DNA of 64,000 nucleotides from a bacterium (GTDB taxonomy: Bacteria; Patescibacteriota; Minisyncoccia; Phycocordibacterales; Phycocordibacteraceae), in the NCBI GenBank assembly GCA_037200965.1, contig JBBCGK010000001.1:736001-800000 (forward strand), written 5' to 3'. The notes beneath the pieces are model-generated. The model saw only the letters and a list, made by a program, of their open reading frames with translations. It made no database searches and had not been told where the DNA came from. The position numbers were made by a program, and so were the translations under genes. Positions 13,969 through 43,282 of the stretch are shown in pieces. Position 1 is the stretch's first letter. Every line of letters starts with the position of its first letter.

Positions 13969-16500
<2,532 letters not shown>

Positions 16501-19872: not shown

Positions 19873-19946
19873 GACCCCGCAACAAGCTTGTGATAGTGGA
19901 ACCCAGACCGGTGCGCCTGCAAAAGCAGTTCAGTATCGGTCCGGAT

Positions 19947-24401: not shown

Positions 24402-24479
24402 ATGGTTCTTATATATTCGCACGCTTTGAGGCAAAAAAATGCGCCCCGGGAATCTCCGTGGGCGCAAGTACGCATGTGG

Positions 24480-27007: not shown

Positions 27008-27679
27008 TCAGCGCGCTTCGATCTTGTAGCCTCTGCCGGGCACGGTGCGGATGAGCCGGTCCTTTCCGGTGTCGCCGATTTTCTTCCGGAGGCTCAGGAT
27101 GTGCGATTCGATGGTGTTCGAGAAGATGTCGATATTCATGTCCCAGACATGCTCGAGGATCATGCCGCGGGAGAGCACGATGCCTTCGTTTTTCATGAGG
27201 TATTCGAGCAGCATAAACTCCTTGCGCGTGAGGGTGATCGATTTCTTCCCGCGCGTCACCGTGCAGCCCTTGGTGTCGAGCGTCAGGTCTTCCACCCTGA
27301 GGACTTCCTTTTCGATGGCCGCCGGACGCCGCAGAAGCGCGCGGATACGGGCTAGAAGTTCCTCGAGCGCGAAAGGCTTTGCGAGATAATCGTCCGCCCC
27401 GGCATTCAGAAGGGCGATTTTCCGGGTCGTGTCGGTTTTGACCGAGACCACGAGTATCGGCATGGTCTTGCCGCTCGCGCGTATCTCGGTGCATACCTGG
27501 AGCCCTTCCTTCTTCGGCAGCATGTTGTCGAGCACGACGAGATCGTAGTCGTTTATCCGGCCGAGATACGAACCTTTCTCGCCGTCTTCGGCGATGTCGA
27601 CCGCGAAATACTCGGACTCGAGCGAGTCCTTGAGAAAGCGGGCTATTTTCGGTTCATCTTCGACAACGAGTATTCTCAT
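27008..27679 (-). CDS. OmpR/PhoB-family response regulator
   Basis: Receiver domain (ILVVEDEP…) plus a winged-helix C-terminal domain (…RTVPGRGYKI). Confidence 0.85.
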   Translation of the reverse strand: MRILVVEDEPKIARFLKDSLESEYFAVDIAEDGEKGSYLGRINDYDLVVLDNMLPKKEGLQVCTEIRASGKTMPILVVSVKTDTTRKIALLNAGADDYLAKPFALEELLARIRALLRRPAAIEKEVLRVEDLTLDTKGCTVTRGKKSITLTRKEFMLLEYLMKNEGIVLSRGMILEHVWDMNIDIFSNTIESHILSLRKKIGDTGKDRLIRTVPGRGYKIEAR

Positions 27680-28025: not shown

Positions 28026-31000
28026 ATGCTCTTCCTCCTTGTACGCACACTCATAAGACCGCATACGTCCCTTCGCGCCTTTCCTTCCTTGGCAGGGAAG
28101 GGCTTCCTGTTCTTGTTCGTGCTTTGGTCCTGTTCGATAAGCGCGCTGCCTGCATACGCGGCATGGGACGGACAGCCCTATGCGCCGGGCGCAACGCTTG
28201 ACCCGGAGTGCGGGCCGAGCGACTCTAATTGCAAGACGCTTGCGAGCGCGGACGCGACGACGCTTGAAGGCAGGTCCGGAAGCTATTACCTTGCCAACTC
28301 CTTCTCGACGACCTCGGCCGCGTATTTCCTTTCTGACAATCCGGGGCTCTCGTTCGCGACCACCAGTTCTGACTATTGGCTCGCGCATCGGTCCACGTCC
28401 GACCTTCCGGAAGGCTCGCGCCTCTACTACACCGATGCCCGCGCGGACGCGCGCATTCTTGCGACAACTACTCTTGCGAATATCATCTCGCTTCCGGGCT
28501 TGTCTTTGTCCGCGTCGCAGCTTACTGGCTTCGGTATTCCTTTCTACAATTTCTTTCACGCGACGACGACCGATGCGCTCGCGGAAGGTTCCCTGCATCG
28601 CTACTACAGCGACGTGCTCGCCCGCGGAGCGCTTGGCGTATCTGCCGGGGCTCTCGCGTATGACAGCGGCACGGGAATCCTTTCGGTTGCGGGCGGATAT
28701 ACGATTCCTTTATCAGCGTCCACGACGGAGTGGGGCGAGGCATATGACAACCGCATCACGTCGGCCTCGGCGCCTCTCACGATCGCGAACCGCGAGATAA
28801 GCCTCGGCATTGTTGATGCGGGGCACGGCGGCACCGGCCTCGCCTCGTACAATCCGGGCGCACTTCTGTATGCCGATGCCGACGGAAACCTCACGACGCT
28901 TTCGCCCGGTTCTTCCGGTACCGTGCTTAAGATCGCGGGCGGCGTCCCGACCTGGGGCACGGATCTTTCAAGCGGCGGCGGGGGAGGAGCCGTAGCCTGG
29001 GCGACGACATCCGACAGCCTCGCGATCTATCCGATGGACAGCACGAACGTCGTCATCGTGGGCGCAAGCGCGACATCGTCGGCGACGAGCGTCTTTGAAG
29101 TGCACGGGAGGTCGTATTTCACGACCAATGTCGGCATCGGCACGACTTCTCCGCTCTCGGCGCTTTCCGTCGCGGGGAGCGGCTTCTTCACCGGCAACCT
29201 GACTTCGGCCAATATCACCGCCACCGGAACGCTTTCAGTCTCGGGTGCTGGCACGTCGACGTTTGCCGGGCCGTTCTTAGCAGGGAATCTTGCGGTCGCC
29301 GGACTTCCCGCGGGCCTTATAAAGGCCGGGGCGGGCGGGTATCTCCGGGGCGCCGTCGCGGGAACGGATTATTTCGATCCTGCCGCGTTCGGTTCAACTT
29401 TCTATTCTTTTTTTCACGCGACGACGACCGATGCGCTTGCCGAAGGTTCGGTGCATAAGTATTGGAGCGATACGCTCTTCGACAACCGCCTCTCCGCGAC
29501 CACGTCGCTTCCGGGCCTCTCTTCCATCGGTTCGTATACCGGGCTCATCGGCGCGAACAACGGTTCCATGTACCAAATCGCCACTTCGACCAACTTCGTG
29601 ACATCGATCGCGGCCGCATACCCGCTCTCCGTTTCCGGACCAGCCGGGGCGGTGACAATCTCGACCGCGCTCGCTACCACCACATTCCAGCACTCATACG
29701 GTTCCGCGCAGATCGGACAAATCATCCTTGCCACTTCAAGCGCGGCAACGAGTAACGGCATCACGGTGGGGCAGACCATCACGAACTCCGGCGGCGTCTT
29801 CACGTTCGCTCCGGCGGTATCCGTATCGAACATCCCCAATGCCGCCCTGCAGAATTCCGCCGTCACCGTCAACGGCACCCTGATCCCGCTTGGCGGCTCG
29901 GGTACTGTCGCCGCCGCTTCTTCCACGCTCCTTGGAGATAACAATACTTTCTCGGGCGGCAATACGTTTTTGAGCACCATCACCGGCTCCGTTTCTGGCA
30001 ATGCCGGCACCGTTACGAACGGCGTATACACGACTACTTTCGGCGGCCTTTTCGACAACCGCCTCTCCGCGACCACGTCGCTTCCGGGCCTTACGGCGGT
30101 TTCGTCCGGCCTCACGGGCGTCCTTAAGGCGGCGGCGGGCTCTCTCTCGGCGGCGGCACCGGGGATCGATTTCGAAAATCCGCTTTCGTTCCTCTATCCG
30201 CTCGCGCGCACCGCAAACAGCGTAAGCCTTGCCTTCGGGACGACAACTTCAAACACTTGGGGAGGAACCCAGACTTTCACCAACAACCCGATACTCGGCA
30301 CTCTCACCGGTCTCTTCTACGGAAACAACGGATCGCTTGCGGCGACGGCGACATCCTCCGTCACCAGCGGCACCGGCATCGGCTTTTCAGGCACGCCGGG
30401 AGCGCTTGTCGGCGGTACTCCGCTTACGATTACGAATACCGGCGTGACGTCGAATATTGCCGGGACCGGCATCAGCGTCTCGGGCGCGACCGGCGCCGTT
30501 ACGATAAGCGCGGCGAACGTGCCGAACAGCGCGCTTGAGAACTCGACGATCGGGCTTGCTTCGGGCGACTCCTCCCTTACGGTTTCCGGCTCGCCCGCCT
30601 CTCTTGGAGGCTCGCTTTCCGCCTCCCTTAACACCGCGCATCCGAATACGTTCACCGCGCTTCAGCAATTCAGCGCAAATGCGTCGACGACGGGAATCTC
30701 TTCTTCGTATGCGTCCTCGACCAAAGCCTTCCTTGGAAGCCTGTCGATAGGGAATCTGACCGGCATCCTGCGCGCGGCCGGGGGTGCCGTATCGGCCTCG
30801 CTCGTGTCCCTCGCTTCCGACGTGACCGGAGTGCTCGGCGTTATAAACGGCGGGACGGGATGGGATTCGATACAGTCCGGCAGCATCCCGTACGGAAACG
30901 GCGCCGGGGCGCTCGCCACCACGAGCCCGGGAACCAACGGGCAGACGCTCGCGCTTGTCGCCGGAGTTCCGGCCTGGATCGCGACGACAACCGCGGGCAC

Positions 31001-34000
31001 CGGCCTTACGTATTCCGGCGGCAGCTTCAATGTGAATACGGCGCAGAATGTCGCGAAGCTTTCGAACCTCACGGGGAACGGATTCGTCAAAACTATAAAC
31101 GGCGACGGCACGCTTTCGGTCGATACCAATACCTACCTCGCCTCCATTGGTCCCGCAGGACAAAGCCAGAGCGGTCCTGCGGTCGCCATTGCCTCCTCGA
31201 CCGATTCTGCGACCGGCCTTATCTCGGGCGTCGTGATAACCGGAAGCGCGAATACGCTTACCTGGAAGGCCGTGCTCTCCGGCGTCTTGAGTGCCGCAAA
31301 CGGCGGCACCGGATCGACGACGCTTTCGGGAATCCTCAAAGGAAACGGCACGGGAGTGCTTATGACCGCGGTTCCGGGAACCGACTATCAGGCGGCGGGG
31401 AACTATCTCACCGCGCTTACCGGTGACATCTCCGCGTCGGGTCCGGGTTCCGCCGCCGCGACGCTCGCGACCGTGAACGCGGATACGGGGTCGTTCGGGG
31501 GTTCGACCGCCATCCCGACTTTTGTCGTAAACGGGAAAGGGCTCGTCACATCCGCGGGCACCGCGGCGGTTATCGCGCCCGCGGGAACGCTCACCGGAAC
31601 CGTACTTGCTTCGAACATCCTCGCTTCTTCGCTTACATCCGTCGGAACGCTCGGCACGCTCTCCGTTTCCGGCCAGGCTTCGCTTGCGGGCGCGAGCTCG
31701 ACCGCCTTTTCCTCGTCCTATGCGTCTTCGACCAGTGCGTTCTTCGGAAACCTGTCCGTCGGAAGTCTTTCGGGAATACTGCGCGCGACCGCCGGAGCGG
31801 TCTCCGCGGGCGCGGTGAATCTTGCCTCGGAAATATCCGGGATGCTCGGCGTCGCAAACGGCGGCACGGGCGCGGGCTCGTTTGCGGCAGGCTCCCTCAT
31901 CTACGGAAACGGTACGGGCCCGCTTCAGAGCGCCGCGACCTCGTCCGTTTCAAACGGCGCTGGCATCTCGGTCTCGGGCGCCGCCGCCGTGGTCGGGAGC
32001 GGGGGACTCACCATCACCAACACGGGCATCACGTCCGTCACGCCGCAATTCGGTGCGGCCATCAGTAACGGCGGGCTAACCGTCGCGTCCTCGACGGCGG
32101 GCACCGACTTTTCGATAACCGGATCGGGAAGCACGATCACGTTCAATCTTCCGACCGCGTCTGCCGCAAACCGCGGCTTGCTTTCCTCCGCCGACTGGAG
32201 CGCCTTCAGCGCCAAGCAGGGCGCGCTTACGTTCGCGTATCCGCTCCAGAATAGCGCGAATACCGTATCGCTCGCCTTCGGGACGACGACCGCGAATACC
32301 TGGGGACCGGTGCAAACTTTCACGAACGTTCCCGTGCTCGGCACTCTTTCGGGAATCATTTATGGGAATAACGGATCGCTTGCCGCGACCGCCACTTCGA
32401 CGCTTGGCGTCGCGCTTGCGGACACTACGGGCTCGCTCCCGGTCGACCGGGGAGGCACCGGATCGACGACGCTCGGCGGCATTTTGAAGGGAAACGGAAC
32501 TTCCGGCATCGCGACCGCCGTCCCCGGCATCGATTATCAGCCCGCCGGGAGCTATCTCACCGGCAACCAGACGGTTACGCTTTCGGGCGACGTCTCGGGA
32601 AGCGGCGCCACTTCGATCACGACCGCGATCGGGGCGGGGAAGGTGACGAATGCGATGCTCCTGGGCGCTATTGCCGCCGCGAAGCTCATCGGAACCGATA
32701 TCACGACCGTCGGGACGATCGTAAGCGGCGTGTGGCAGGGCTCCGTGATCGGATCAGCCTACGGCGGGGCGGGAGCCGTAAGCGGAATACTCAAAGCGAA
32801 CGGTTCCGGCAACGTCTCCGCCGCCTCCGCCGGAACCGACTACGTCGCTCCGAACTCCTCGCCCACATTTGCGGGCCTCACGCTCCTAAGCGCGCTTCCC
32901 GTCGCAAGCGGCGGGACGGGCTGGAGCGCGATACAGTCCGGCAGCATCCCGTACGGAAACGGTTCCGGTGCCCTCGCGACTACCTCGAGCGGGGCGGCGG
33001 GGAGCGTGCTCGCGCTTGTCGCCGGAGTTCCGGCCTGGGTCGCGACGACCACGTTCTCCACGGGCCTTACGTATACGGCCGGAAGCGTGACCGTGAACAC
33101 CGCACAGAGCATCGCGAAGCTTTCGAACCTGACAAGCAATGGATTCGTCAAAACTATAAACGGCGACGGCACGCTCTCGGTCGATACGAACACCTACCTC
33201 GCCTCCATTGGTCCCGCAGGACAAAGCCAGAGCGGCCCCGCAATTACGATCGCAACTTCGACCGCGGGAACCGACATATCGGTGACGGCTTCCGGCAATA
33301 CGATCACGTTCAACCTCCCGACCGCATCTGCCGCAAACCGCGGCTTGCTTTCCTCGTCCGATTGGACGACATTCAACGGCAAAGTGTCGACCGGCGCGTT
33401 CACATCCTCCGGCCTCACCCTTTCGACCGGTAAGCTTCTCGGAAGAAGTTTGGACGGTACGGGAGCGGCCGAAGAGATAACGGTCGGGAGCGGCCTCTCT
33501 CTTTCTGGCGGGACTCTCTCCGCGTCTGGGAGCGGCATCAGCGCACTTGGTCCTTCGGGACAAACCCAAAGCGGTGCGACGGTCACCATTGCCACCTCGA
33601 CAAGCCTTGCAAACGGCGTCACGTCCGCGCTTGTGGTCGTGGGTTCTTCGAACACGCTTATGTTCACTCCTTCCGTTTCCGGCGTGCTCACGGTTCCTGG
33701 GGGAGGCACCGGTGCCGGTACGCTCACGGGACTCGTTTCGGGAAACGGCACGAACGCTTTCACCGCGACCGCGAACGGCGCAAACGGCCAGGTGCTTGCT
33801 ATGTCCGCCGGAGCGCCGACCTGGGTCGCAACGACCACGTTCTCGACCGGACTTACGTACACGGCGGGCACGGTGACGGTCAACACGGTGCAAAGCGTCA
33901 CGAAGCTTTCGAATCTCGCCACGAACGGATTCGTGAAAACGATCAACGCCGACGGCACGCTCTCGATCGACACCAACACCTATCTCACCTCTGCCCTCAC

Positions 34001-35105
34001 CTCAATAGGTCCCGCCGGTCAGGTACAGAACGGCCCGGCTATCGTTATCGCCACCTCGACGACCGCATTTAACGGCATTACGGTGGGCGACACGATAACC
34101 GGTTCGGGGAACACGCTTACGTGGAAGCCCAGCTGGAGCGGTTCGCTCAGCGTCCCTGGCGGCGGCACGGGGGCGACTTCGTTCGGGCAGGGCTGGATAT
34201 TCTCAAGCGGCGGCACGGGTGCCCTTGCTGCCTCGACAAGCCCGACCGTGAACTATCTTATCGCCACCTCGACGACCGCCGCTTCGATCTTCAATTACCG
34301 CGTCGGCATCGGTACGAACGCCCCCGCAACCGCGCTTGACGTGAACGGCGATATCACGATCGAGACCTTGACCTGCAACACATCGCTCGTCGGACTGGGC
34401 ACCGACGCGAACGGCAAGATCTATTGCAAGAGCGTCGTAGGTTCCGATGAGCGGCTTAAGTCGAATATCGAAAGTCTCGGCGACGAAAATGGCCTTGCTC
34501 TCATAGACTCGCTGCGCCCTGTCTCCTATGACTGGAAGGACCCGAACGTGTATGGCGGCATGTCCGGCCTCCAGTACGGGTTCATCGCGCAGCAGGCGCT
34601 TTCTGCCGCGCCGACTCTCGTCGGCACGACGTCGCCGACAGAACTGACGCCCGACGTCACGTACACGTTCAACTATTTCGGCCTCATCGCGCCCCTCGTG
34701 AAAGCGACACAGCAGCTTGACGCGCGGTTCGGCGCGATTGCTTCAACGAGCGCGGATGCGTCTCCGACGTCTTTTGCTCAGGCATTCTTTGGCCGTCTTC
34801 GGGAATGGTTCGCCGACGCGGCAAACGGAATCGAGGACTTCTATGCGAATCGTGTCCATACTTCGCAACTATGCTTAGCAGTCTCCGGCGGGGAAGAGGA
34901 ATGCTTTACGGGCGACGAGCTGAAAGCCCTTAAGGAGAAAGCCGGACAGCATGACAAGGTTCCGCCGCCCGGCATCGGGCCTGTCATCATCGAGGATGTT
35001 CCGCCGCCGGACACCACTGCCTCATCGTCCGAGCCGGAATCAGAAGCCGCTGCGGCTATGCCAGTGCCTCCCGATCCCGCTACTGACTTACCCGCGCCCG
35101 AGTAA
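28026..35105 (+). CDS. giant (2359 aa) secreted surface protein, Gly/Thr/Ser-rich repeat region, C-terminal intramolecular-chaperone (peptidase S74-like) domain and Pro-rich tail
   Basis: Signal-peptide-like N-terminus, then an AAWDGQPYAPGATLDPECGPSDSNCK module. Long near-identical internal repeats. C-terminal VVGSDERLKSNIESL…LRPVSYDWK…GFIAQQ resembles the autoproteolytic tail-fibre chaperone domain, followed by a PPPG/PPPD tail. Confidence 0.8.
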   Translation: MLFLLVRTLIRPHTSLRAFPSLAGKGFLFLFVLWSCSISALPAYAAWDGQPYAPGATLDPECGPSDSNCKTLASADATTLEGRSGSYYLANSFSTTSAAYFLSDNPGLSFATTSSDYWLAHRSTSDLPEGSRLYYTDARADARILATTTLANIISLPGLSLSASQLTGFGIPFYNFFHATTTDALAEGSLHRYYSDVLARGALGVSAGALAYDSGTGILSVAGGYTIPLSASTTEWGEAYDNRITSASAPLTIANREISLGIVDAGHGGTGLASYNPGALLYADADGNLTTLSPGSSGTVLKIAGGVPTWGTDLSSGGGGGAVAWATTSDSLAIYPMDSTNVVIVGASATSSATSVFEVHGRSYFTTNVGIGTTSPLSALSVAGSGFFTGNLTSANITATGTLSVSGAGTSTFAGPFLAGNLAVAGLPAGLIKAGAGGYLRGAVAGTDYFDPAAFGSTFYSFFHATTTDALAEGSVHKYWSDTLFDNRLSATTSLPGLSSIGSYTGLIGANNGSMYQIATSTNFVTSIAAAYPLSVSGPAGAVTISTALATTTFQHSYGSAQIGQIILATSSAATSNGITVGQTITNSGGVFTFAPAVSVSNIPNAALQNSAVTVNGTLIPLGGSGTVAAASSTLLGDNNTFSGGNTFLSTITGSVSGNAGTVTNGVYTTTFGGLFDNRLSATTSLPGLTAVSSGLTGVLKAAAGSLSAAAPGIDFENPLSFLYPLARTANSVSLAFGTTTSNTWGGTQTFTNNPILGTLTGLFYGNNGSLAATATSSVTSGTGIGFSGTPGALVGGTPLTITNTGVTSNIAGTGISVSGATGAVTISAANVPNSALENSTIGLASGDSSLTVSGSPASLGGSLSASLNTAHPNTFTALQQFSANASTTGISSSYASSTKAFLGSLSIGNLTGILRAAGGAVSASLVSLASDVTGVLGVINGGTGWDSIQSGSIPYGNGAGALATTSPGTNGQTLALVAGVPAWIATTTAGTGLTYSGGSFNVNTAQNVAKLSNLTGNGFVKTINGDGTLSVDTNTYLASIGPAGQSQSGPAVAIASSTDSATGLISGVVITGSANTLTWKAVLSGVLSAANGGTGSTTLSGILKGNGTGVLMTAVPGTDYQAAGNYLTALTGDISASGPGSAAATLATVNADTGSFGGSTAIPTFVVNGKGLVTSAGTAAVIAPAGTLTGTVLASNILASSLTSVGTLGTLSVSGQASLAGASSTAFSSSYASSTSAFFGNLSVGSLSGILRATAGAVSAGAVNLASEISGMLGVANGGTGAGSFAAGSLIYGNGTGPLQSAATSSVSNGAGISVSGAAAVVGSGGLTITNTGITSVTPQFGAAISNGGLTVASSTAGTDFSITGSGSTITFNLPTASAANRGLLSSADWSAFSAKQGALTFAYPLQNSANTVSLAFGTTTANTWGPVQTFTNVPVLGTLSGIIYGNNGSLAATATSTLGVALADTTGSLPVDRGGTGSTTLGGILKGNGTSGIATAVPGIDYQPAGSYLTGNQTVTLSGDVSGSGATSITTAIGAGKVTNAMLLGAIAAAKLIGTDITTVGTIVSGVWQGSVIGSAYGGAGAVSGILKANGSGNVSAASAGTDYVAPNSSPTFAGLTLLSALPVASGGTGWSAIQSGSIPYGNGSGALATTSSGAAGSVLALVAGVPAWVATTTFSTGLTYTAGSVTVNTAQSIAKLSNLTSNGFVKTINGDGTLSVDTNTYLASIGPAGQSQSGPAITIATSTAGTDISVTASGNTITFNLPTASAANRGLLSSSDWTTFNGKVSTGAFTSSGLTLSTGKLLGRSLDGTGAAEEITVGSGLSLSGGTLSASGSGISALGPSGQTQSGATVTIATSTSLANGVTSALVVVGSSNTLMFTPSVSGVLTVPGGGTGAGTLTGLVSGNGTNAFTATANGANGQVLAMSAGAPTWVATTTFSTGLTYTAGTVTVNTVQSVTKLSNLATNGFVKTINADGTLSIDTNTYLTSALTSIGPAGQVQNGPAIVIATSTTAFNGITVGDTITGSGNTLTWKPSWSGSLSVPGGGTGATSFGQGWIFSSGGTGALAASTSPTVNYLIATSTTAASIFNYRVGIGTNAPATALDVNGDITIETLTCNTSLVGLGTDANGKIYCKSVVGSDERLKSNIESLGDENGLALIDSLRPVSYDWKDPNVYGGMSGLQYGFIAQQALSAAPTLVGTTSPTELTPDVTYTFNYFGLIAPLVKATQQLDARFGAIASTSADASPTSFAQAFFGRLREWFADAANGIEDFYANRVHTSQLCLAVSGGEEECFTGDELKALKEKAGQHDKVPPPGIGPVIIEDVPPPDTTASSSEPESEAAAAMPVPPDPATDLPAPE

Positions 35106-36162
35106 GGGGGCCGAAGTATCCTGCGGCCGGAGCTATACCGTTTGCGACCTGATATTCCGCAAGCGCGGCCTGCGTGACCGGGCCGAAGTATCCCGTCGCT
35201 CCGGCTGCCGCGAGCGCGCGGGCTCCCGGCCCGCTGTTTTTCCCTATGAGAAATGCCTGAAGCGCGGTCACGTCGCTTCCGCGCGCGCCGACGATCAGGT
35301 CGCGATAGAAAGTTGAGGTGGTCACCGCCGTGTTTCCCGCTGCTTCAAGCGCGTCATCGATCGCGGAGGGAAGGTTCATGCCAAGCGCGAGCGCTCCGAG
35401 GAAGGTTCCGCGATAGTTTCGCACGAGCATTTCGGCATCCTCGTCTTCGTCTTCGTCATCGGCATCCTTAAGCGCGTCTTCGACCGCATCGATGCGCTCG
35501 TCGAGCGTGAATTCGCGGGCTAGGCGAGGGAACGGATCGGTCGCCGTCCTTCCGTGGCGTATCTCGAAATGGAGATGGGTTACTCCGCCTTTCGCGTCCC
35601 CGGTGTCTCCCACATACCCGATGAGGTCGCCTTTCTTGAGCACCGAGCCTCTCTTAAGCCCTTCGGCGAATTTGTCGAGATGCATGTACGCGAATGTCTC
35701 GTCCCCGGGATTCGCCGTATAGACATAGTTTCCGGCGCTCGAGCCCGTGCCCATGCTCGTCACCACCGCGTCGGTGGGGGAGACGATGTAGTCGTCCTTG
35801 GGCGCAAGGATGTCCTCGCCCTCGTGCTTGCGCGCCCCGCCGTCGCGCGGGTCGCCGAAGTTCGGCGTGATGTCCACGAGCGAAACGCCAAGCAGCACGG
35901 GTATCGGAAGGTTCTTGACGGGATCGTCGTCAAGCGCGTCGATGGCCTTCTGCGCCGCGGAAGATATGCCGCGGCGGGACGTCGCGCGTTCGATCGTCTC
36001 CTGGCTCGCGCTCCCTTCCGAGGAATTGCGCCAATAGTCGTATGTTCTCGAATACTGCGGCCGTGTCGCCGCCTGTGCGGCCGGCGGGCAAGCGGCCGCG
36101 AAGACGAACGCGCTGATAAAGGAAACGGCAAGCACCGCCCGTGCCCGGTAAGCGTATGTCAT
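35080..36162 (-). CDS. M23 family metallopeptidase with C-terminal peptidoglycan-binding repeats
   Basis: Signal peptide, LytM motifs HEGEDI…GDTGDAKGGVTHLHFEI, and two PG_binding_1-like repeats (…TALQAFLI…GYFGPVTQAAL…). Confidence 0.8.
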   Translation of the reverse strand: MTYAYRARAVLAVSFISAFVFAAACPPAAQAATRPQYSRTYDYWRNSSEGSASQETIERATSRRGISSAAQKAIDALDDDPVKNLPIPVLLGVSLVDITPNFGDPRDGGARKHEGEDILAPKDDYIVSPTDAVVTSMGTGSSAGNYVYTANPGDETFAYMHLDKFAEGLKRGSVLKKGDLIGYVGDTGDAKGGVTHLHFEIRHGRTATDPFPRLAREFTLDERIDAVEDALKDADDEDEDEDAEMLVRNYRGTFLGALALGMNLPSAIDDALEAAGNTAVTTSTFYRDLIVGARGSDVTALQAFLIGKNSGPGARALAAAGATGYFGPVTQAALAEYQVANGIAPAAGYFGPLTRARVSQ

Positions 36163-36960: not shown

Positions 36961-37500
36961 ATGCGCCGCACTCGTCCTATGGCAGCTAAGAATGAAAAGA
37001 TGGATATAGATGTCTCCGAGCCAGTGCCCGAAGCGCCGTGGCCTCCGGCCGCGCCGGGACCAAGGAACGGGCGCAGGATGCGGCGCGGATGGTCCAAGAT
37101 TCTCGCCGCGCTCATCCTGGTCCTCGTCCTCGCCGCGCTTGCGTACTATTTTGTGCAATACCAGCGCCTCAGCCGCGACCCGGCGGTGGTCGCGCGGGCC
37201 GAAGACGCGAAAGTCATACAGGAACTTTCGAAGGTGATGGTGGTCCCGAACGATCCGAGCCCCGTCATTGCGACCGTGTCCGACAAAAGCAAGCTTGCCG
37301 ACCAGCCTTTCTTCGCGCAGGCGCAAAACGGCGACCAGGTCATCATCTTCCCGGTTTCGATGAAAGCCGTGCTCTATCGTCCGTCGGCCCGAAAAATAAT
37401 CGACATCGCGCCGCTTGCAACCGGTGCCTCGGCGTCTGCCGCCGCCCCGTCTCCCGTACCCGCAAAGGCGAAGGCGGCCGCGACGAGCACGACTCCTTAA
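36961..37500 (+). CDS. hypothetical membrane-anchored protein (first gene of a 5-gene + strand operon)
   Basis: One TM helix and an Ala/Pro-rich C-terminus. The antisense ORF is R-rich. Confidence 0.45.
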   Translation: MRRTRPMAAKNEKMDIDVSEPVPEAPWPPAAPGPRNGRRMRRGWSKILAALILVLVLAALAYYFVQYQRLSRDPAVVARAEDAKVIQELSKVMVVPNDPSPVIATVSDKSKLADQPFFAQAQNGDQVIIFPVSMKAVLYRPSARKIIDIAPLATGASASAAAPSPVPAKAKAAATSTTP

Positions 37501-37504
37501 ACGC

Positions 37505-38689
37505 ATGAATATCCGACTCGGCACCATTTCGCTCGTCGCACTCATTTTCTTTTCCTTCGCGCTTCCCGCGTTCGCGTCGGAAACATCCGGAACGGTGCTC
37601 GATTCGCAGAAGTTCGGATGGGGCGACAAGATCGGGTGGATCAATTTCGCACCGACCGACGGCTCCGAGTACGTCGGCCTCGTGATCACCGACAGCGCGG
37701 TGACGGGCTTCGCGTGGAGCAGGGATTTCGGATGGATACGGTTCGATCCGCCGAATTCCGGACAGGGGGTTACGAACACGCCGGAAGGCGTTCTTGGCGG
37801 TTCCGCATGGGTCGCGTCGCTCGGATGGATATCGATGGAGGGCGTAACGATAAATCAAAACGGCGAGTTCACGGGCATCGCCGGAGTCGCTGGCACCGAT
37901 ACCGCGCGTATTTCCTTCGATTGCTCGCGGTGCGGCGTGCAGACTGACTGGCGCCCGGCATCCGTGCGAGGCGGCGGCGGAAACAACGGGGGAGGCAGCG
38001 GCAACAACGGGCGTTCCGGCAGTTCCGTTCCGGACGCATCCTCGCCAGAACCCTCCTCAAGCGGTGGCGGGATCGGTATCGTGCCGTTCTTTCAGAACTT
38101 ATTTACGGGCATCTTCGGCGCAGCTCCCGGGACGAACGCCGGTACCGCTGGCGCGGCGGGCGCTGCCGTTCCGAACAGCCTGTTCGACATTTCGCTCGCG
38201 CTTGAAAAGAGCGTCGTGCCCGCAGGCGAGCCGCTCGTCGCGCTCGTCTCGTTCGCGAACTTCGGAAAGGTTACTACCGCGGCCGACCTCGCCTTCTCCA
38301 TCGTCAACGGCGAGGGAACCGTATTCGCGACATCGACCGCGCGCACGAGCGTCGAAACCGAGAACCTCGTGCGGCAGACGTTTGCTACGACGGCATTCTC
38401 TCCCGGAACGTACTGGATAAAGCTCAGGGTCACGTACGGTTCGCCCGTCATCACCGAAGACTTCAACCAGCAGTTCACAATCACGGCCGCGCAGACGTTC
38501 GCCGGGCGGTGCGGGTTCCCGTGGCCGCTGTCGTATGCCGTGGATCACATCGCGTTCCTCGCCTGGTTCGGCTGTGTATTCCCGTGGATCATCATTATCG
38601 TCACGATACTGATGATCGTCGCTCTCTTCTATTATCTTGTTCATCCGCGTGGAAAGGACCGGCATGCGGCCCGCGCTTTCTCCCGATGA
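37505..38689 (+). CDS. secreted protein with triplicated GW-containing repeats, Gly/Ser-rich linker and C-terminal TM anchor
   Basis: Signal peptide MNIRLGTISLVALIFFSFALPAFA. Repeats FGWGDKIGWINF / FAWSRDFGWIRF / SAWVASLGWISMEG. The C-terminal TM segment is hydrophobic. Confidence 0.6.
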   Translation: MNIRLGTISLVALIFFSFALPAFASETSGTVLDSQKFGWGDKIGWINFAPTDGSEYVGLVITDSAVTGFAWSRDFGWIRFDPPNSGQGVTNTPEGVLGGSAWVASLGWISMEGVTINQNGEFTGIAGVAGTDTARISFDCSRCGVQTDWRPASVRGGGGNNGGGSGNNGRSGSSVPDASSPEPSSSGGGIGIVPFFQNLFTGIFGAAPGTNAGTAGAAGAAVPNSLFDISLALEKSVVPAGEPLVALVSFANFGKVTTAADLAFSIVNGEGTVFATSTARTSVETENLVRQTFATTAFSPGTYWIKLRVTYGSPVITEDFNQQFTITAAQTFAGRCGFPWPLSYAVDHIAFLAWFGCVFPWIIIIVTILMIVALFYYLVHPRGKDRHAARAFSR

Positions 38690-39693: not shown

Positions 39694-40187
39694 AGCGGAT
39701 CCTGAAGCTGTCGGCGGGCCTGGGTGCGGTCCTGCTGTGCGCGGGTATCGTTCCAGCATCCGTACATGCGGCGAGCGTGGCGCTTTCCATCCCCGACCGG
39801 TACGCGCAAGTGGATCCCGACGACCGTTTTTACTACCAGCTTAACGTCCTGTATCCGGAAAACGTCCAGCGGAGGGACCTCACCGTCACTTACCGCGTCG
39901 AGGAGGGGCAGGCGACGATCGTCAGCGGCCAGTACCTGCGGGCAGTCGAGACGCAGGCATCCTTCTCCGATTACATCGTCATTCCGACCGACGCCCGGGA
40001 AGGCCTCCATACGATAGAGATCGCGGTCACCGACGGCGACAAGCCGCTCGCGCAGGTGAGCGGAAGCTTCCAGGTCAATCCGCAGGAAGACTGGGTCATG
40101 ATCTACTTCTCGATACTTCTTGCCGCCGTGCTGCTGGTCGGCGTCGGCCTGTTCGTCGAGATCCTTATCGTGTCCCGCCGCGCATGA
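39690..40187 (+). CDS. secreted hypothetical protein with C-terminal TM anchor
   Basis: ATGA coupling and signal peptide MKRILKLSAGLGAVLLCAGIVPASVHA. Confidence 0.5.
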   Translation: MKRILKLSAGLGAVLLCAGIVPASVHAASVALSIPDRYAQVDPDDRFYYQLNVLYPENVQRRDLTVTYRVEEGQATIVSGQYLRAVETQASFSDYIVIPTDAREGLHTIEIAVTDGDKPLAQVSGSFQVNPQEDWVMIYFSILLAAVLLVGVGLFVEILIVSRRA

Positions 40188-40291
40188 CTTGTCCACACCG
40201 CGAATGCTTGAACGGGACAGGTGCTGCTAGACTCAAGAGTGTTCCGGTGTTGCGCACCGCATCTGTCCCGGGGACGATTAATTCTCGTCTC

Positions 40292-43282
40292 ATGCGCACC
40301 ATCTTCACCTCTCCTTTGCTAGCGTTCGCGGGACGCTTCACCGCGGTTTTCTTTTTCGTATTTGCAGCAAACGGTATCGTCGGTTTTCCCGCCGCGCATG
40401 CGGCATGGGACGGTAATCCGTACGAGCCCGAGGAAACACTCGATCCGGAATGCTCGCCGAATCAGGGGCAGTGCCGTATCACGCAGCCCGTCAGCGCCGG
40501 AGAGAGCGTACCGGCAGGCTCGCTTCTCTATACCGACGGTACGGATTCATGGACGACGCTTCCCATCGGCAGCGACGGCAAGGTGCTCAAGATAAGCGGC
40601 GGTTCGGTCGTCTGGGGAGACGATAACGGCGGCATCTCGTACAGCGCATCCGAACAGGGGCTGCACCTTGATGCGGGCACGCACGTGCTCTCTATCACGC
40701 TTGACGGCTCGACGCTCTCCGCGTCCGGAAGCGGACTCCGGCTTGCGGCCGCCTATCCCGGTCAGGCATCCATTACGACGCTCGGTACCATTACGACCGG
40801 CACGTGGCATGGTTCCGCAGTAGCTCCGGCCTATGGCGGTACGGGCGCGTCGTCAGCTCCCGCAAACGGCCAGCTTCTCATCGGCAACGGATCGACGTAT
40901 ACGGTCGCGAACGCGAGCGGCTCGGGCGGCATACAAATCACGAACGGTTCGGGATCGCTTGGCATCGGCCTTTCCATAAGCGGATTGTCGGCAGTCTCAA
41001 GCGCCGCGAACGGCGATTATCTCGCGCTCTACGATGACAGCGCGGGGGCGAACAGGAAGATCAGCATCAGCGACCTGTTCGCGAACGTTATCGGCTCTCT
41101 TAATTTCCAAGGCACGTGGGATGCGGATGCGAACAGCCCGTCCCTTTCCGACGGCATGTGCACGGCAAGCGAAAACGGATACTTCTATATCGTCGGCACG
41201 TCCGGAGCGACGACTCTGGGCGGCGTGTCCTCATGGGACGTGGGCGACTGGCTTATCTGCGACGGCACGGGCTGGGGCAAGGTCGCGGATACGAGCGCCA
41301 TCGCGAGTGTGTTCGGGCGCACCGGCGCGGTCACTGCTCAGAGCGGGGACTATACCGGCGACCAGATCATCAATGTCGCGGCGGGCACGATCGCCTCGAC
41401 GAACGTGCAGGGCGCCATTAACGAGCTCGCAAGCGAGAAAGAAGCGGCGATAGCGTCGGGCCTTACGACCCAGTACTGGCGCGGCGACAAGACGTGGCAG
41501 ACCTTGAATACGCTCGCGGTGGCCGAGAATCCCGCCCACCTCTATTACACCGACGCCCGCGCGAGAAACGCGTTTTCTTCGGGCAGTGCATCGCTTTCGT
41601 ACGATTCCTCGACCGGCGTCATCGCCGTTACGGGCGGATACAGCATTCCGGAATCGGGGACCATCGAAGGGGATACGCTCGTCTGGGACGGATCGAACTG
41701 GGTTCCGACCGAGGGCGCGATGTCGTTCTCTTTGTCCACCGGCCTTCTCTCGATCGATGGCACCGCCTCGTCTACCGACCTTTATATCGCGGATGATGCC
41801 ATCATAGCCTCCGCCGATATCGGATCGCTTTCCGCCGATTCGCTCTCGCTTTCCGCCGCCCTTGGCGCAGGGTCAGGCGGTACCGGCATCACGAGTCCTG
41901 TCTCGGCCGGAATTCTTATCGGTACGCAGGGAGGCGGAGCGTGGCAGCAGGTCGCGACCTCGACGCTCCGCATCGCGCTTGCCGATACGACCGGAACCCT
42001 TTCGGTCGTCAAGGGCGGTCTTGGTCTCACTGCCGCGCCTTCGTTCGGGAATCTCCTCATGGGTAACGGTTCGGGCGGCTATACTTCGGTCGCGACTTCT
42101 TCGCTCGGCCTTACGTTCTCTTCGATCGCGGGGACGCTCGGGGTTTCCGCGGGAGGAACCGGCGTAGTTTCCGCGCCTTCATTCGGGGAGCTCCTGCTTG
42201 GAAACGGCTCAGGAGGATATGCGCTCGCCGCCACCTCGACTCTCGGTCTCAATCTCTCCTCGCTTACCGGAACCCTTGGCGTCGCCGCAGGCGGTACCGG
42301 AGCGGCGAGTCTTGGCCAAGGATGGCTCTATTCGACCGGCGGCGGCATCGCGCTCTCCGCGTCCACGTCGCCGACCGTGAACTACCTTCTCGCCACCTCG
42401 ACGACGCAAGCATCCGCGATTGCCTACCGTCTCGGCGTCGGGAGTACGACGCCGCTTGCGACCCTTGCGGTTAAGGGTGCGGGAACCGGCGCGGGCGTCA
42501 CGCTTCAGACGACCGACAGCGCCGACATCGCGGGCCTTACGGTTCTCGACAAGGGATTCGTCGGCATAGGCACGACATCTCCGGTGGCTGCGCTTGCGGT
42601 GAGCGCGGCGGCCGGCGTCGCGCCGTTCGCGGTGGGTTCGTCGACGGGGGGAATCAAGCTCACCGTCGCCGCGAACGGCTTCGTCGGCGTCGGCACCTCA
42701 AGCCCTACGTATCCGCTCGACGTGCGGGGAGATGTCGGCGGAACGGTCGCGCGTTTCCAGACTACGACAAATTCGCTCTTCTGCCTCCTCTCCTCGATTA
42801 CCGGGCTTTTGAGTTGCGCATCGGACGAGCGGCTCAAGAAGGACATTACGCCGCTTGACGCGTCGACGCTCGACCAGGTCCTCGCGCTCAAGCCGGTTTC
42901 GTACCACTGGAAGACCGATGATTCTTCCGCCGGACTCAAGTATGGATTCATCGCGCAGGATGTCGAGAAGATATTTCCCGAACTCGTTTCCGCCGATCCC
43001 ACCACCGGCTACAAGTCCCTTTCCACCGGCGGCATGATGCCATACGTCGTGAAAGCTCTTCAAGAGCAGCAAGTCGAAATCGAGGATCTCAAGGCGCAGA
43101 TAGCGGTGCTTGCCGCTCATCTTCCGCATGTGTCCGGAGATGACGAAACTCCCGCACCGGTTCCTCCTTCCGGGCCCGAAGAGGAGGAAGGAAGCGTGAC
43201 CCCTCCTGTTCCTGAGGAGGAAGTTCCGGCTCCCGTACCGCCGACCGTGAATACTGACGATGCTCCGGTCGCAACTCCGTAG
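40292..43282 (+). CDS. giant (~1000 aa) secreted surface protein, paralogous architecture to 28026-35105 (shared N-terminal module, C-terminal S74-like chaperone domain, Pro-rich tail)
   Basis: Signal peptide MRTIFTSPLLAFA…AAHA|AWDGNPYEPEETLDPECSPNQGQC. C-terminal CASDERLKKDITPL…LKPVSYHWK…GFIAQD, a coiled coil, then PAPVPP repeats. An alternative ATGA-coupled start lies at 40184. Confidence 0.8.
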   Translation: MRTIFTSPLLAFAGRFTAVFFFVFAANGIVGFPAAHAAWDGNPYEPEETLDPECSPNQGQCRITQPVSAGESVPAGSLLYTDGTDSWTTLPIGSDGKVLKISGGSVVWGDDNGGISYSASEQGLHLDAGTHVLSITLDGSTLSASGSGLRLAAAYPGQASITTLGTITTGTWHGSAVAPAYGGTGASSAPANGQLLIGNGSTYTVANASGSGGIQITNGSGSLGIGLSISGLSAVSSAANGDYLALYDDSAGANRKISISDLFANVIGSLNFQGTWDADANSPSLSDGMCTASENGYFYIVGTSGATTLGGVSSWDVGDWLICDGTGWGKVADTSAIASVFGRTGAVTAQSGDYTGDQIINVAAGTIASTNVQGAINELASEKEAAIASGLTTQYWRGDKTWQTLNTLAVAENPAHLYYTDARARNAFSSGSASLSYDSSTGVIAVTGGYSIPESGTIEGDTLVWDGSNWVPTEGAMSFSLSTGLLSIDGTASSTDLYIADDAIIASADIGSLSADSLSLSAALGAGSGGTGITSPVSAGILIGTQGGGAWQQVATSTLRIALADTTGTLSVVKGGLGLTAAPSFGNLLMGNGSGGYTSVATSSLGLTFSSIAGTLGVSAGGTGVVSAPSFGELLLGNGSGGYALAATSTLGLNLSSLTGTLGVAAGGTGAASLGQGWLYSTGGGIALSASTSPTVNYLLATSTTQASAIAYRLGVGSTTPLATLAVKGAGTGAGVTLQTTDSADIAGLTVLDKGFVGIGTTSPVAALAVSAAAGVAPFAVGSSTGGIKLTVAANGFVGVGTSSPTYPLDVRGDVGGTVARFQTTTNSLFCLLSSITGLLSCASDERLKKDITPLDASTLDQVLALKPVSYHWKTDDSSAGLKYGFIAQDVEKIFPELVSADPTTGYKSLSTGGMMPYVVKALQEQQVEIEDLKAQIAVLAAHLPHVSGDDETPAPVPPSGPEEEEGSVTPPVPEEEVPAPVPPTVNTDDAPVATP

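What the first reader, a model, noticed from the sequence alone, without database searches (positions are those of the whole stretch)
28026..35105. Giant 2359-aa surface protein with phage-tail-fibre-like C-terminal intramolecular chaperone (peptidase S74) domain
The C-terminus (…VVGSDERLKSNIESL…LRPVSYDWK…YGFIAQQ…) resembles the autoproteolytic chaperone domain that trimerises and then excises itself from tail spikes and endosialidases. Here it terminates a Gly/Thr/Ser-rich, β-rich extracellular protein carrying a signal peptide and a Pro-rich (PPPG/PPPD) tail. In a bacterium with a type IV pilus cluster and many small secreted proteins, such a fibre could be an attachment or host-recognition organelle.
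Basis: partly seen in the sequence, partly recalled or inferred. Interest (0 to 1): 0.75.

Follow-up and report, generated by a model that had tools for sequence, protein, structure and literature searches.

The report
Cell-encoded phage-style fibre in a CPR bacterium
A tiny, probably host-dependent bacterium encodes on its own chromosome a giant secreted fibre protein that ends in the self-cleaving folding domain phages use for their tail fibres; the domain call holds up, but its role in attachment is only inferred.

Summary
Window 28026..35105 (+) is one 2359-aa ORF, 54% Gly/Thr/Ala/Ser. It has a signal-peptide-like N-terminus and a Pfam Peptidase_S74 domain at aa 2140-2199 (52 bits against a cutoff of 22).

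Ser2140, Arg2143 and Lys2145 (SDERLK) are invariant among relatives. They align with the catalytic motif of solved intramolecular chaperones, and the predicted fold matches MyRF ICA, endoNF and GA-1 chaperones.

The gene is cellular, not prophage. No phage structural gene was found among the ORFs I scanned. The organism is a Kaiserbacteria-like member of the CPR (Patescibacteria). A 1032-aa paralogue lies 5 kb downstream.

Only the roughly 100-aa chaperone resembles cultured-phage proteins. The 2,090-aa body has no Pfam or PHROG hit. A conserved 65-aa module without a Pfam family follows the chaperone.

The Pro-rich tail lies after the cleavage site, so it would leave with the chaperone rather than end the mature fibre.

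Most likely the protein is Sec-exported, trimerised by the chaperone and self-trimmed into an adhesion fibre. Trimerisation, cleavage, surface location and host binding are all untested. NCBI already names it "tail fiber domain-containing protein". I rate it a new variant of a known kind, of moderate interest.

The parts
28026..35105 (+). Giant fibre gene, 2359 aa (NCBI MEJ0053947.1)
   Evidence: ORF list. Positive codon-usage score against a model trained on window housekeeping genes. Exact protein on record.
28026..28160 (+). Signal-peptide-like N-terminus, aa 1-45 (basic n-region, hydrophobic core aa 26-42, AYA|AW)
   Evidence: Read from the sequence, plus hydropathy maximum 2.22 at aa 27-41. 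The paralogue has the same layout with AHA|AW. Cleavage is inferred, not predicted by a dedicated tool.
28161..28235 (+). Conserved mature N-terminal cap AWDGQPYAPGATLDPECGPSDSNCK, with Cys62/Cys69
   Evidence: 61% identical to the paralogue at the same position, and also visible as a DNA repeat (D7). The motif Y.PG.TL.P.C.P....C follows the signal peptide in P0040, P0074, P0109, P0110, P0374, P0394 and P0395.
28236..34178 (+). Fibre body, aa 71-2051: Gly/Thr/Ser/Ala-rich mosaic of diverged repeats, with at least 9 'GGTG...G.P.W' units
   Evidence: Internal repeats of 40-84% identity. Unit HMM hits at aa 258, 931, 1082, 1268, 1465, 1569, 1618, 1882 and 2035. No Pfam or PHROG family.
30816..31280 (+). 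Long repeat copy 1 (aa 931-1085). Copies 2 and 3 are at 32877-33326 and 33669-34139.
   Evidence: Chunk BLAST gives 64-84% identity between copies. The DNA repeat family D1 lies within these copies at 84% and 63% identity. AF2 model mean pLDDT 77.6; unit residues 1-60 score 86-92 as a small beta domain. No PDB fold match. Weak matches to fibre-like proteins of uncultured phages.
34179..34442 (+). Pre-chaperone segment, aa 2052-2139: GQGW...STSPTVNYLIATSTT, VGIGT motif and Cys2117-Cys2134 loop, ending ...KSVVG just before the scissile bond
   Evidence: 61% identical to the paralogue. A Cys-x(6-22)-Cys loop directly precedes the Ser in 59 of 100 S74 occurrences among relatives.
34443..34742 (+). 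Intramolecular chaperone / Peptidase_S74 domain, aa 2140-2239. Ser2140 is at 34443-34445, Arg2143 at 34452-34454, Lys2145 at 34458-34460.
   Evidence: PF13884 at 52 bits. S, R and K are invariant in 29- and 20-sequence alignments. The profile hits 8jov, 7dc3, 6f45 and 3gud with the motif aligned. AF2 pLDDT is 77-92, and Foldseek finds 7dc3 (E 5.5e-5, TM 0.67), 3gw6 and 3gud.
34743..34937 (+). Conserved post-chaperone module without a Pfam family, aa 2240-2304: F..W(F/L)ADAxNGI..FA helices plus a Cys2283/Cys2293 beta-hairpin plus helix
   Evidence: Alignment A3 has invariant N, G, A, C, C. 2,061 cluster representatives at E<=1e-3. No significant Pfam family. AF2 pLDDT 72-81. Not found in IMG/VR pattern scans.
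34938..35102 (+). Acidic Pro-rich low-complexity tail, aa 2305-2359
   Evidence: Read from the sequence. pLDDT below 50. Relatives carry analogous S/T/P/D/E-rich tails, often after a DUF5011 Ig-like domain that is absent here.
40184..43282 (+). Paralogous shorter fibre gene, 1032 aa as listed. It has the same N-terminal cap, pre-chaperone segment, S74 domain (aa 880-935; 42821-42988) and Pro/acidic tail, but no post-chaperone module.
   Evidence: PF13884 at 70.6 bits. PHROG tail-fibre hits. BLASTP against the giant. Translation.
37505..38689 (+). Secreted 'GWINF'-repeat protein with a C-terminal TM segment: a conserved neighbour of giant fibre genes. Its functional link is inferred.
   Evidence: Homologues (31-50% identity over the N-terminal ~150 aa) lie next to giant fibre genes in L013, L024/L029 and L005. 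No Pfam or PHROG family.
36961..37500 (+). Small single-pass membrane protein: a second recurrent neighbour. Its functional link is inferred.
   Evidence: Homologues near giant fibre genes in L020 and L024. No Pfam or PHROG family.

Best explanation
The gene encodes a chromosomally encoded, exported fibre of a Kaiserbacteria-like CPR bacterium that is assembled the way phage tail fibres are.

Proposed steps:
1. The N-terminal signal sequence takes the chain across the membrane through Sec (inferred from sequence).
2. Three chains are brought into register at the C-terminus by the Peptidase_S74 intramolecular chaperone. The domain, dyad and fold are shown here; trimerisation is inferred from what is established for the family.
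3. Once folded, Ser2140 and Lys2145, with Arg2143 as oxyanion helper, cut the chain before Ser2140 (inferred).
4. A 220-aa, 23-kDa acidic fragment is released. It comprises the chaperone, the conserved 65-aa module and the Pro-rich tail.
5. A 2,094-aa, 202-kDa mature chain (aa 46-2139) remains. Its new C-terminal tip is a disulfide-closed loop, C2117...C2134-KSVVG.

The body is a string of small repeated beta units. The cell-proximal end is the N-terminus, because about a third of the giant relatives replace the signal peptide with a cytoplasmic HTH followed by a transmembrane segment.

The most likely job is contact with, and adhesion to, another cell or surface, as part of a cell-envelope island. 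That island also holds a shorter paralogue, other secreted or membrane proteins, an M23 peptidoglycan peptidase, GH18 and A4 hydrolases, two-component regulators and, 14 kb upstream, the type IV pilus genes.
For: - Domain: PF13884 at 52 bits against a cutoff of 22.
- Catalytic residues: S2140, R2143 and K2145 are invariant in relatives and aligned to the motif in 8jov, 7dc3, 6f45 and 3gud. Chain 3gud begins at the equivalent SDERHK. The Ser/Lys dyad, the oxyanion Arg and trimerisation-dependent cleavage are described for the family in PMC3742443.
- Fold: the model matches 7dc3, 3gw6 and 3gud and nothing else.
- Cellular, not phage: the neighbours are two-component systems, ThiF, a methyltransferase, M23, a kinase, LigA, GatCA and pilus genes. 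None of the unknown neighbours hits a PHROG family.
- Composition is native: gene GC 0.624 against 0.594 for the window, and GC3 0.73, like LigA.
- Taxonomy: all named best hits of PyrG are Kaiserbacteria or Paceibacterota at 74-76% identity. The fibre's relatives are giant proteins of Parcubacteria and other Patescibacteria.
- Exported: signal-peptide-like N-terminus. Cysteines occur only in the signal peptide and as three close pairs, at 62/69, 2117/2134 and 2283/2293.
- N-terminal anchoring in the family: 40 of 120 relatives carry an HTH, and 36 of those have a TM-like segment.
- Paralogue with the same ends.
- Recurrent neighbour genes in other CPR genomes.
- Literature: large beta-rich repeat proteins of Parcubacteria were already proposed to be adhesins (PMC4508563).
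Against: - No tool here tests trimerisation, cleavage, export or binding.
- The repeat unit of the body is modelled confidently as a monomer (pLDDT 86-92). The body therefore need not be an intertwined trimer.
- If the signal peptide is cleaved, nothing identified here holds the fibre on the cell.
- The chaperone is followed by a conserved extra module, which canonical phage chaperones lack. The released fragment may therefore have its own role.
- No expression data.
- The host-attachment role rests on analogy and on the assumed episymbiotic lifestyle of CPR bacteria.
Confidence: 0.55

Rival explanations
1. It is a virion or tailocin/eCIS component: a tail-fibre gene of an integrated prophage, a phage-tail-like particle or a mis-binned phage contig.
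For: PHROG tail-fibre families hit the C-terminal 230 aa. NCBI names it a 'tail fiber domain-containing protein'. The S74 literature is almost entirely about phages and eCIS fibres. An IS1595 transposase lies 6.5 kb upstream.
Against: - No capsid, portal, terminase, sheath, tube, baseplate or tape-measure gene among the ORFs I scanned in the window. The unknown neighbours have no PHROG hits.
- The protein has a secretion signal instead of a virion-attachment domain.
- Cultured-phage matches cover only aa ~2092-2240, at 36% identity or less.
- No close relatives in 2.9 million IMG/VR contigs by pattern scan.
- Composition is like the host's.
- Housekeeping genes lie on both sides.
Confidence: 0.04
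2. The S74 cut is a release switch rather than a discard step. The functional product is the C-terminal fragment (chaperone, conserved module, and in relatives an Ig-like DUF5011 domain, plus an acidic Pro-rich tail). It could be a wall-associated anchor whose cleavage sheds the fibre, or a piece that stays bound at the tip as the actual binding head.
For: The region after the chaperone is conserved and widespread: 2,061 protein clusters. It is modelled as folded at pLDDT 72-81. In many relatives a DUF5011 domain follows it. About 20 of the 94 top hits with at least 170 residues upstream of the module carry it without an S74 core. In MYRF the C-terminal fragment is retained and oligomeric (PMC3742443).
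Against: The paralogue lacks the module altogether yet keeps the S74 domain and tail. There is no C-terminal TM segment, LPXTG or other known sorting signal. No toxin or enzyme domain is detectable.
Confidence: 0.15
3. It is a surface coat or matrix protein (S-layer-like, protective or aggregative fibre) with no specific host-recognition role.
For: Highly repetitive, acidic (pI 4.7), Gly/Thr/Ser-rich and without Pfam domains in the body. Several other secreted or membrane proteins of unknown function sit in the same island.
Against: The family is extremely variable in length and mosaic in repeat content, which is the pattern expected of recognition proteins rather than a lattice-forming coat. 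The assembly domain is one used for receptor-binding fibres.
Confidence: 0.15
4. It is a monomeric beads-on-a-string adhesin in which the S74 domain is a non-cleaving relic or merely an oligomerisation tag.
For: The repeat unit folds confidently as a monomer in AF2. No triple-beta-helix fold was recovered.
Against: Ser, Arg and Lys of the catalytic motif are invariant across 29 divergent relatives, which argues for selection on catalysis. AF2 monomer runs cannot show trimeric folds.
Confidence: 0.08

Closest known systems
C-terminal intramolecular chaperone domains of phage fibres and spikes (MEROPS S74 / Pfam PF13884): K1F endosialidase (PDB 3gw6), GA-1 neck appendage (3gud), long tail fibre distal subunit (6f45), putative tail fibre (8jov)
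   Same: Same domain by sequence, catalytic S-x2-R-x-K motif and predicted fold. Same position, C-terminal to a long fibrous region.
   Different: Those are virion parts encoded in phage genomes, with N-terminal particle-attachment domains and the chaperone as the last domain. This one is a chromosomal gene with a secretion signal, a body unrelated to any PHROG family, and a further conserved module and tail after the chaperone.
MYRF (myelin regulatory factor) ICA domain, PDB 7dc3
   Same: Best structural match (E 5.5e-5, TM 0.67). It is another case of the phage chaperone used by a cellular protein. Many giant CPR relatives combine a DNA-binding-type HTH, a TM segment and an S74 domain in one chain.
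   Different: In MYRF the order is DNA-binding domain, ICA, then TM, and cleavage frees the transcription factor. In the CPR relatives the order is HTH, TM, fibre, then S74, so the cut is at the far extracellular end. The window protein has no HTH at all.
Tail fibres of extracellular contractile injection systems and tailocins that carry S74 domains (PMC12923769, listed)
   Same: Bacterially encoded fibres ending in the same chaperone.
   Different: Those sit in sheath, tube and baseplate gene clusters and are not Sec substrates. No such genes are found among the scanned ORFs of this window.
Large (>1500 aa) beta-rich repeat proteins of Parcubacteria noted as putative adhesins (Nelson & Stegen 2015, PMC4508563)
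   Same: Same lineage, size class and repeat-rich beta character. This protein is one of them.
   Different: That paper gave no domain-level description. Here the C-terminal assembly domain, its catalytic residues, the N-terminal variants and the post-chaperone module are defined.
Trimeric autotransporter adhesins (YadA/AtaA type)
   Same: Works like them if the model is right: a long trimeric fibre used for adhesion, with trimerisation driven from the C-terminus.
   Different: No sequence or fold relation. Those are anchored by a C-terminal outer-membrane beta-barrel in diderm bacteria and are not self-trimmed (no such Pfam hit).

Membership tests
Peptidase S74 / intramolecular chaperone (CIMCD, ICA) domain | Sequence match to the family profile above the curated threshold | tested here: met
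   PF13884 at aa 2140-2199, 52 bits against 22, E 8.8e-14. The paralogue scores 70.6 bits.
Peptidase S74 / intramolecular chaperone (CIMCD, ICA) domain | Catalytic Ser and Lys five residues apart, with the oxyanion Arg between them (S-D-x-R-x-K), aligned with characterised members | tested here: met
   S2140, R2143 and K2145 are invariant in A1 and A2 and aligned to SDERLK/SDRRIK/SDERHK of 8jov, 6f45 and 3gud, and to the (mutated) motif of 7dc3. The roles of the residues are taken from PMC3742443.
Peptidase S74 / intramolecular chaperone (CIMCD, ICA) domain | Fold of solved chaperone domains | tested here: met
   AF2 model pLDDT 77-92 over aa 2140-2239. The only significant Foldseek PDB matches are 7dc3, 3gw6 and 3gud.
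Peptidase S74 / intramolecular chaperone (CIMCD, ICA) domain | Lies directly C-terminal to a trimeric fibre or beta-helix that it helps to fold | tested here: inconclusive
   It follows a 2,090-aa beta-rich repeat region with VGIGT-type motifs. The trimeric state cannot be modelled here, and the pre-chaperone part of the model has pLDDT below 50.
Peptidase S74 / intramolecular chaperone (CIMCD, ICA) domain | Trimerisation-dependent self-cleavage before the Ser, with release of the domain | not testable with these tools
   Needs biochemistry or proteomics.
Phage/tailocin/eCIS tail fibre (particle component) | Encoded within a cluster of phage or phage-tail-like structural genes | tested here: not met
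   Pfam and PHROG scans of the neighbours across about 45 kb show only cellular genes.
Phage/tailocin/eCIS tail fibre (particle component) | N-terminal domain that docks on a baseplate or tail, with no secretion signal | tested here: not met
   The N-terminus is signal-peptide-like. No PHROG hit in aa 46-2139.
Phage/tailocin/eCIS tail fibre (particle component) | Close relatives in viral genomes | tested here: not met
   Cultured phages match only the chaperone core, at 36% identity or less. IMG/VR pattern scans found no relative. The repeat unit has only weak structural matches in BFVD, none at E<=0.001.
MYRF-type membrane-bound transcription factor | DNA-binding domain N-terminal to the ICA domain, so that cleavage releases it | tested here: not met
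   No DNA-binding domain in the window protein. Relatives have HTH_17, but it is separated from S74 by a TM segment and the whole fibre.
Sortase-anchored (LPXTG) or other C-terminally sorted surface proteins | C-terminal sorting motif followed by a hydrophobic segment and basic residues | tested here: not met
   The protein ends in an acidic Pro-rich tail. No TM-like window lies anywhere after the signal peptide.
Diversity-generating-retroelement target protein | Nearby reverse transcriptase and a near-identical template/variable repeat pair | tested here: not met
   Only diverged in-gene repeats (63-85% identity), apart from one 44-nt in-frame duplication. No reverse transcriptase among the ORFs I scanned with Pfam.

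The most novel reading that the evidence does not exclude
CPR/Patescibacteria may have taken the phage tail-fibre assembly module into cellular service to build their own cell-borne 'tail fibres' for finding and holding host cells. On this reading the family has diversified into signal-peptide forms, such as this one, and forms fused through a membrane span to a cytoplasmic HTH domain. The latter could couple contact at the fibre to gene regulation, using the same parts list as eukaryotic MYRF. The conserved post-chaperone module, which has no Pfam family, would be a new functional element of this cellular lineage, since my scans did not find it in viral contigs.
Probability: 0.2. Interest if true: 0.8.

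Novelty: new variant of a known kind. Interest (0 to 1): 0.45.

Why it matters
How ultrasmall CPR bacteria recognise and hold their hosts is largely unknown beyond type IV pili. If these S74-terminated giants are cell-borne recognition fibres, they would be a second attachment system. Their tips could be read like phage receptor-binding proteins to predict host range.

They would also be a clear case of a phage assembly device reused by cells.

The finding gives concrete handles for testing: the cleavage site, the catalytic residues, the new C-terminal tip loop, a conserved module with no Pfam family, and recurrent neighbour genes.

On the other hand, the domain annotation itself is already produced automatically by NCBI. 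S74 domains in bacterial proteins are not rare, so the surprise to a specialist is moderate.

Tried and rejected
- Single-sequence phmmer of the last 350 aa against PDB found nothing. A profile of 29 relatives was needed.
- The look-up of encoding contigs had no record of the exact protein, so I annotated the context by hand.
- Tandem Repeats Finder found no tandem DNA repeats.
- Whole-protein self-BLAST returned only the identity hit. 100-aa chunks revealed the mosaic repeats.
- My first greedy ORF picking chose wrong strands in this high-GC DNA. I replaced it with a codon-usage score.
- NCBIfam gave no hit. Pfam and PHROGs on five body segments gave no hit. The weak Prok-E2_A and DUF5053 hits on the post-chaperone module are below threshold, and I rejected them.
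- A DGR-type hypervariation mechanism was rejected: no near-identical template repeat and no reverse transcriptase among the scanned ORFs.
- The word-indexed search with the post-chaperone module returned only 20 short fragments. The exhaustive profile search was informative.
- Viral-contig scans: alignment A1 had no stretch conserved enough to search with. The single protein and A3 gave pattern hits but no confirmed relatives. These scans are pattern-limited, so absence is only indicative.
- Foldseek of the repeat-unit model against PDB gave nothing below E = 2.5.
- The genome-contig scan did not recover the window's own genome, so I took taxonomy from PyrG relatives instead.
- Literature searches for S74 or tail-fibre domains in CPR found no dedicated paper. 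The library lacks most subscription journals.
Full report

Yes. Window 28026..35105 (+) is a single ORF of 2359 codons with an ATG start. The open frame begins at 27927 and holds no earlier start codon.

Gly, Thr, Ala and Ser make up 54% of the residues.

Pfam finds Peptidase_S74 (PF13884) at aa 2140-2199, with E 8.8e-14 and 52 bits against a gathering score of 22. PHROG tail-fibre families hit only the last ~230 aa. NCBIfam finds nothing.

The identical protein is in NCBI as MEJ0053947.1, 'MAG: tail fiber domain-containing protein [bacterium]', on a 960,259-bp contig. The domain-level annotation is therefore already made automatically.

**2. Does the S74 domain pass its membership tests?**

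I aligned the C-termini of 29 relatives. Ser2140, Arg2143 and Lys2145 of SDERLK are invariant, as are the G and A of GFIAQ and a Pro. A second, longer alignment agrees.

A single-sequence search of PDB found nothing. The profile found:
- a putative tail fibre, 8jov (E 1e-19);
- the MyRF ICA domain, 7dc3 (3e-15);
- a long tail fibre distal subunit, 6f45 (2e-13);
- the GA-1 neck-appendage chaperone, 3gud (7e-6).

The motif is aligned in every case. The 3gud chain, which is the released chaperone, begins at the equivalent SDERHK.

The family's chemistry is summarised in PMC3742443: a Ser/Lys dyad, an oxyanion Arg, and cleavage only after trimerisation.

An AlphaFold2 model of aa 2030-2359 has pLDDT 77-92 across aa 2140-2239. 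Its only meaningful Foldseek matches in PDB are 7dc3 (E 5.5e-5, TM 0.67), 3gw6 (endoNF chaperone) and 3gud.

Sequence, catalytic residues and fold are therefore met. Trimerisation and cleavage cannot be tested here.

**3. Whose gene is it?**

The neighbourhood is cellular.

Upstream:
- a type IV pilus cluster at 3735-14450, with PilM, PilB, PilT, PilC, pilins and prepilin peptidase;
- LigA and GatC/GatA;
- an IS1595 transposase and a fasciclin protein;
- a GAF histidine kinase, ThiF and a methyltransferase;
- a divergent OmpR-type response regulator at 27008-27679.

Downstream:
- a convergent M23 peptidase with a peptidoglycan-binding domain at 35080-36162, overlapping the fibre gene's 3' end by 26 bp;
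- an AAA_33 kinase;
- several secreted or membrane proteins of unknown function;
- a receiver domain, an FAD oxidoreductase, a GH18 hydrolase and a Peptidase_A4.

None of the unknown neighbours hits a PHROG family.

Gene GC is 0.624, against 0.594 for the window. GC3 is 0.73, like LigA.

Every named best hit of the window's CTP synthase is Candidatus Kaiserbacteria or Paceibacterota, at 74-76% identity. The fibre's own relatives are 1,300-3,900-aa proteins of Parcubacteria, Paceibacterota, Minisyncoccia, Saccharibacteria and other Patescibacteria.

In cultured phage genomes only aa ~2092-2240 finds matches, at 36% identity or less. Pattern scans of 2.9 million IMG/VR contigs confirmed no relative.

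I reject the prophage, tailocin and eCIS reading.

**4. Anatomy**

| Region (aa) | Feature | Evidence |
|---|---|---|
| 1-45 | Basic n-region, hydrophobic core, AYA\|AW | |
| 46-70 | Conserved cap AWDGQPYAPGATLDPECGPSDSNCK, Cys62/69 | |
| 71-2051 | Mosaic body of diverged repeats | |
| 2052-2139 | Pre-chaperone segment with VGIGT motif and Cys2117...Cys2134 loop | |
| 2140-2239 | Chaperone (S74) | |
| 2240-2304 | Conserved post-chaperone module | |
| 2305-2359 | Acidic Pro-rich tail | |

- **Cap.** It is shared with the paralogue and, as Y.PG.TL.P.C.P....C, with several relatives.
- **Body.** Three ~150-aa copies share 64-84% identity. There are at least nine 'GGTG...G.P.W' units. No Pfam or PHROG family hits it.
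- **Repeat-unit model.** An AF2 model of aa 931-1085 built on a 49-sequence alignment gives the ~60-aa unit as a small beta domain at pLDDT 86-92. It has no PDB counterpart. In BFVD it has only weak matches (E 3e-3 to 0.1, 25-42% identity over 45-75 columns) to fibre-like proteins of uncultured phages.
- **Pre-chaperone segment.** It is 61% identical to the paralogue. A Cys loop in this position precedes the Ser in 59 of 100 S74 occurrences among relatives.
- **Post-chaperone module.** It consists of helices bearing W(F/L)ADAxNGI, a two-Cys hairpin and a further helix, modelled at pLDDT 72-81. It has no significant Pfam family. It occurs in 2,061 cluster representatives at E<=1e-3, at a median 104 residues from the C-terminus. 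About three quarters of the hits with enough upstream sequence have an S74 core just before it.
- **Cysteines.** All seven are Cys36 in the signal peptide plus three close pairs. This fits an extracellular protein.

**5.

The Pro-rich tail is downstream of the scissile bond. If the domain acts as in phages, the products are:
- a mature chain, aa 46-2139 (2,094 aa, 202 kDa, pI 4.7);
- a released fragment, aa 2140-2359 (220 aa, 23 kDa, pI 4.2) that carries the tail.

The mature tip would be the disulfide loop ending ...KSVVG.

**6. Family context**

A 1032-aa paralogue at 40184-43282 has the same cap, pre-chaperone segment, S74 domain (70.6 bits) and Pro/acidic tail. It lacks the post-chaperone module. 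These are the only two S74 genes in the window.

Among the 120 best relatives, 40 begin with an HTH_17-type segment instead of a signal peptide. Of those 40, 36 have a TM-like segment at about aa 95-205. Several also end in S74. The family is therefore anchored at the N-terminus, with the chaperone end distal. This is the same polarity as a phage fibre on its baseplate.

A secreted 'GWINF'-repeat protein (window 37505-38689) recurs beside giant fibre genes in L013, L024/L029 and L005. A small membrane protein (36961-37500) recurs in L020 and L024.

**7. Mechanism and rivals**

The best-supported model has five steps:
1. Sec export.
2. C-terminal trimer nucleation by the chaperone.
3. Self-cleavage before Ser2140.
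4. Loss of the 23-kDa fragment.
5. A long, acidic, repeat-built fibre used for contact or adhesion within a cell-envelope island.

What is shown: the ORF, domain, catalytic residues, fold, cellular context, taxonomy, paralogy and family architectures.

What is inferred: export, trimerisation, cleavage, surface retention and function.

Rivals kept open:
- The C-terminal fragment is itself functional, or acts as an anchor whose cleavage sheds the fibre. The conserved extra module and the DUF5011 domains in relatives support this.
- The protein has a non-specific coat or matrix role.
- It is a monomeric adhesin with a non-cleaving S74. The monomer-confident repeat unit supports this.

**8. Comparison with what is known, and novelty**

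Large beta-rich repeat proteins of Parcubacteria were noted as likely adhesins in 2015 (PMC4508563). Of the 25 listed papers that mention Peptidase_S74 (30 in all), the great majority concern phages; two concern eCIS fibres and one polinton-like viruses. MYRF, the cellular use of this domain, came up in a separate search.

I found no paper on S74-terminated secreted fibres of CPR bacteria. The library omits most subscription journals, so this is absence in what I could search.

I rate the finding a new variant of a known kind. The assembly domain is classical and auto-annotated. The cellular, secreted deployment, the post-chaperone module and the HTH-anchored sister architecture are not described as far as I could find.

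Interest is moderate at 0.45: a useful, testable lead on CPR host contact, but not a surprise at the level of the domain.

Noticed in passing
window 40184-43282 (+): A second, shorter (1032 aa) Peptidase_S74 protein lies 5 kb downstream. It has the same post-signal-peptide cap (AAWDGNPYEPEETLDPEC...C), pre-chaperone segment and Pro/acidic tail, but lacks the post-chaperone module. Its likely true start is Met37.
   Followed up: yes
relatives P0002-P0120, e.g. P0022, P0026, P0028, P0061: About a third of the giant CPR relatives start with an HTH_17-type segment followed by a TM-like segment, and several end in an S74 domain. That gives HTH, TM, giant fibre and S74 in one chain: the MYRF parts list (DNA-binding-type domain, ICA domain, membrane span) in a different order. 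Whether the HTH binds DNA is unknown.
   Followed up: partly
window 34743-34937 (aa 2240-2304 of the giant protein): A conserved ~65-aa module (F..W[LF]ADAxNGI..FA, two-Cys hairpin, ..QL.ALL helix) has no Pfam family. It is present in 2,061 protein-cluster representatives, usually right after an S74 domain, though about 20 of the 94 top hits with enough upstream sequence lack an S74 core. Pattern scans did not find it in IMG/VR. A second, different two-Cys module (G.TM.D..TG..YCV.I.NG.W....G.CG) takes its place in L029, P0042, P0071 and P0086.
   Followed up: partly
window 37505-38689 (+) and 36961-37500 (+); L013 8776-10017; L029 14202-15284: A secreted protein with three 'GWINF' repeats, a C..C.V.TDW motif and a C-terminal TM segment, together with a small single-pass membrane protein, recurs next to giant fibre genes in several CPR genomes. 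Neither has a Pfam or PHROG family.
   Followed up: partly
window ~19591-19882 (+), intron 19614-19815: A group I intron (Rfam RF00028, 58.8 bits) interrupts a tRNA gene. Removing it in silico lets ARAGORN call a tRNA. The anticodon call (Cys-GCA or Leu-TAG) depends on the exact splice junction, which I did not settle.
   Followed up: partly
window 35080-36162 (-), 46462-47514 (-), 47610-48374 (+): Secreted hydrolases cluster around the fibre genes. An M23 peptidase with a peptidoglycan-binding domain is convergent with the giant gene and overlaps its 3' end by 26 bp. There is also a GH18 glycosidase and a Peptidase_A4. These could act on a partner's envelope, but no link was tested.
   Followed up: no
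window 27008-27679 (-) and 22434-24467 (-): An OmpR-type response regulator is transcribed divergently from the giant gene across a 346-bp intergenic region, with a GAF-domain histidine kinase further upstream. They are possible regulators of the fibre gene. Not examined.
   Followed up: no
window 20675-21478 (+): An IS1595-family transposase (DDE_Tnp_IS1595 plus a zinc ribbon) is the only mobile-element gene seen among the ORFs I scanned in the window.
   Followed up: no
giant protein aa 1357-1402 and 1122-1150 (window ~32094-32231 and ~31389-31475): Short motifs of the body, such as LPTASAANRGLLSSADWSAF, match at 60-80% identity in proteins of Bacteroidota, Verrucomicrobiota, Proteobacteria and others. 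Small fibre motifs are therefore shared far beyond CPR.
   Followed up: no
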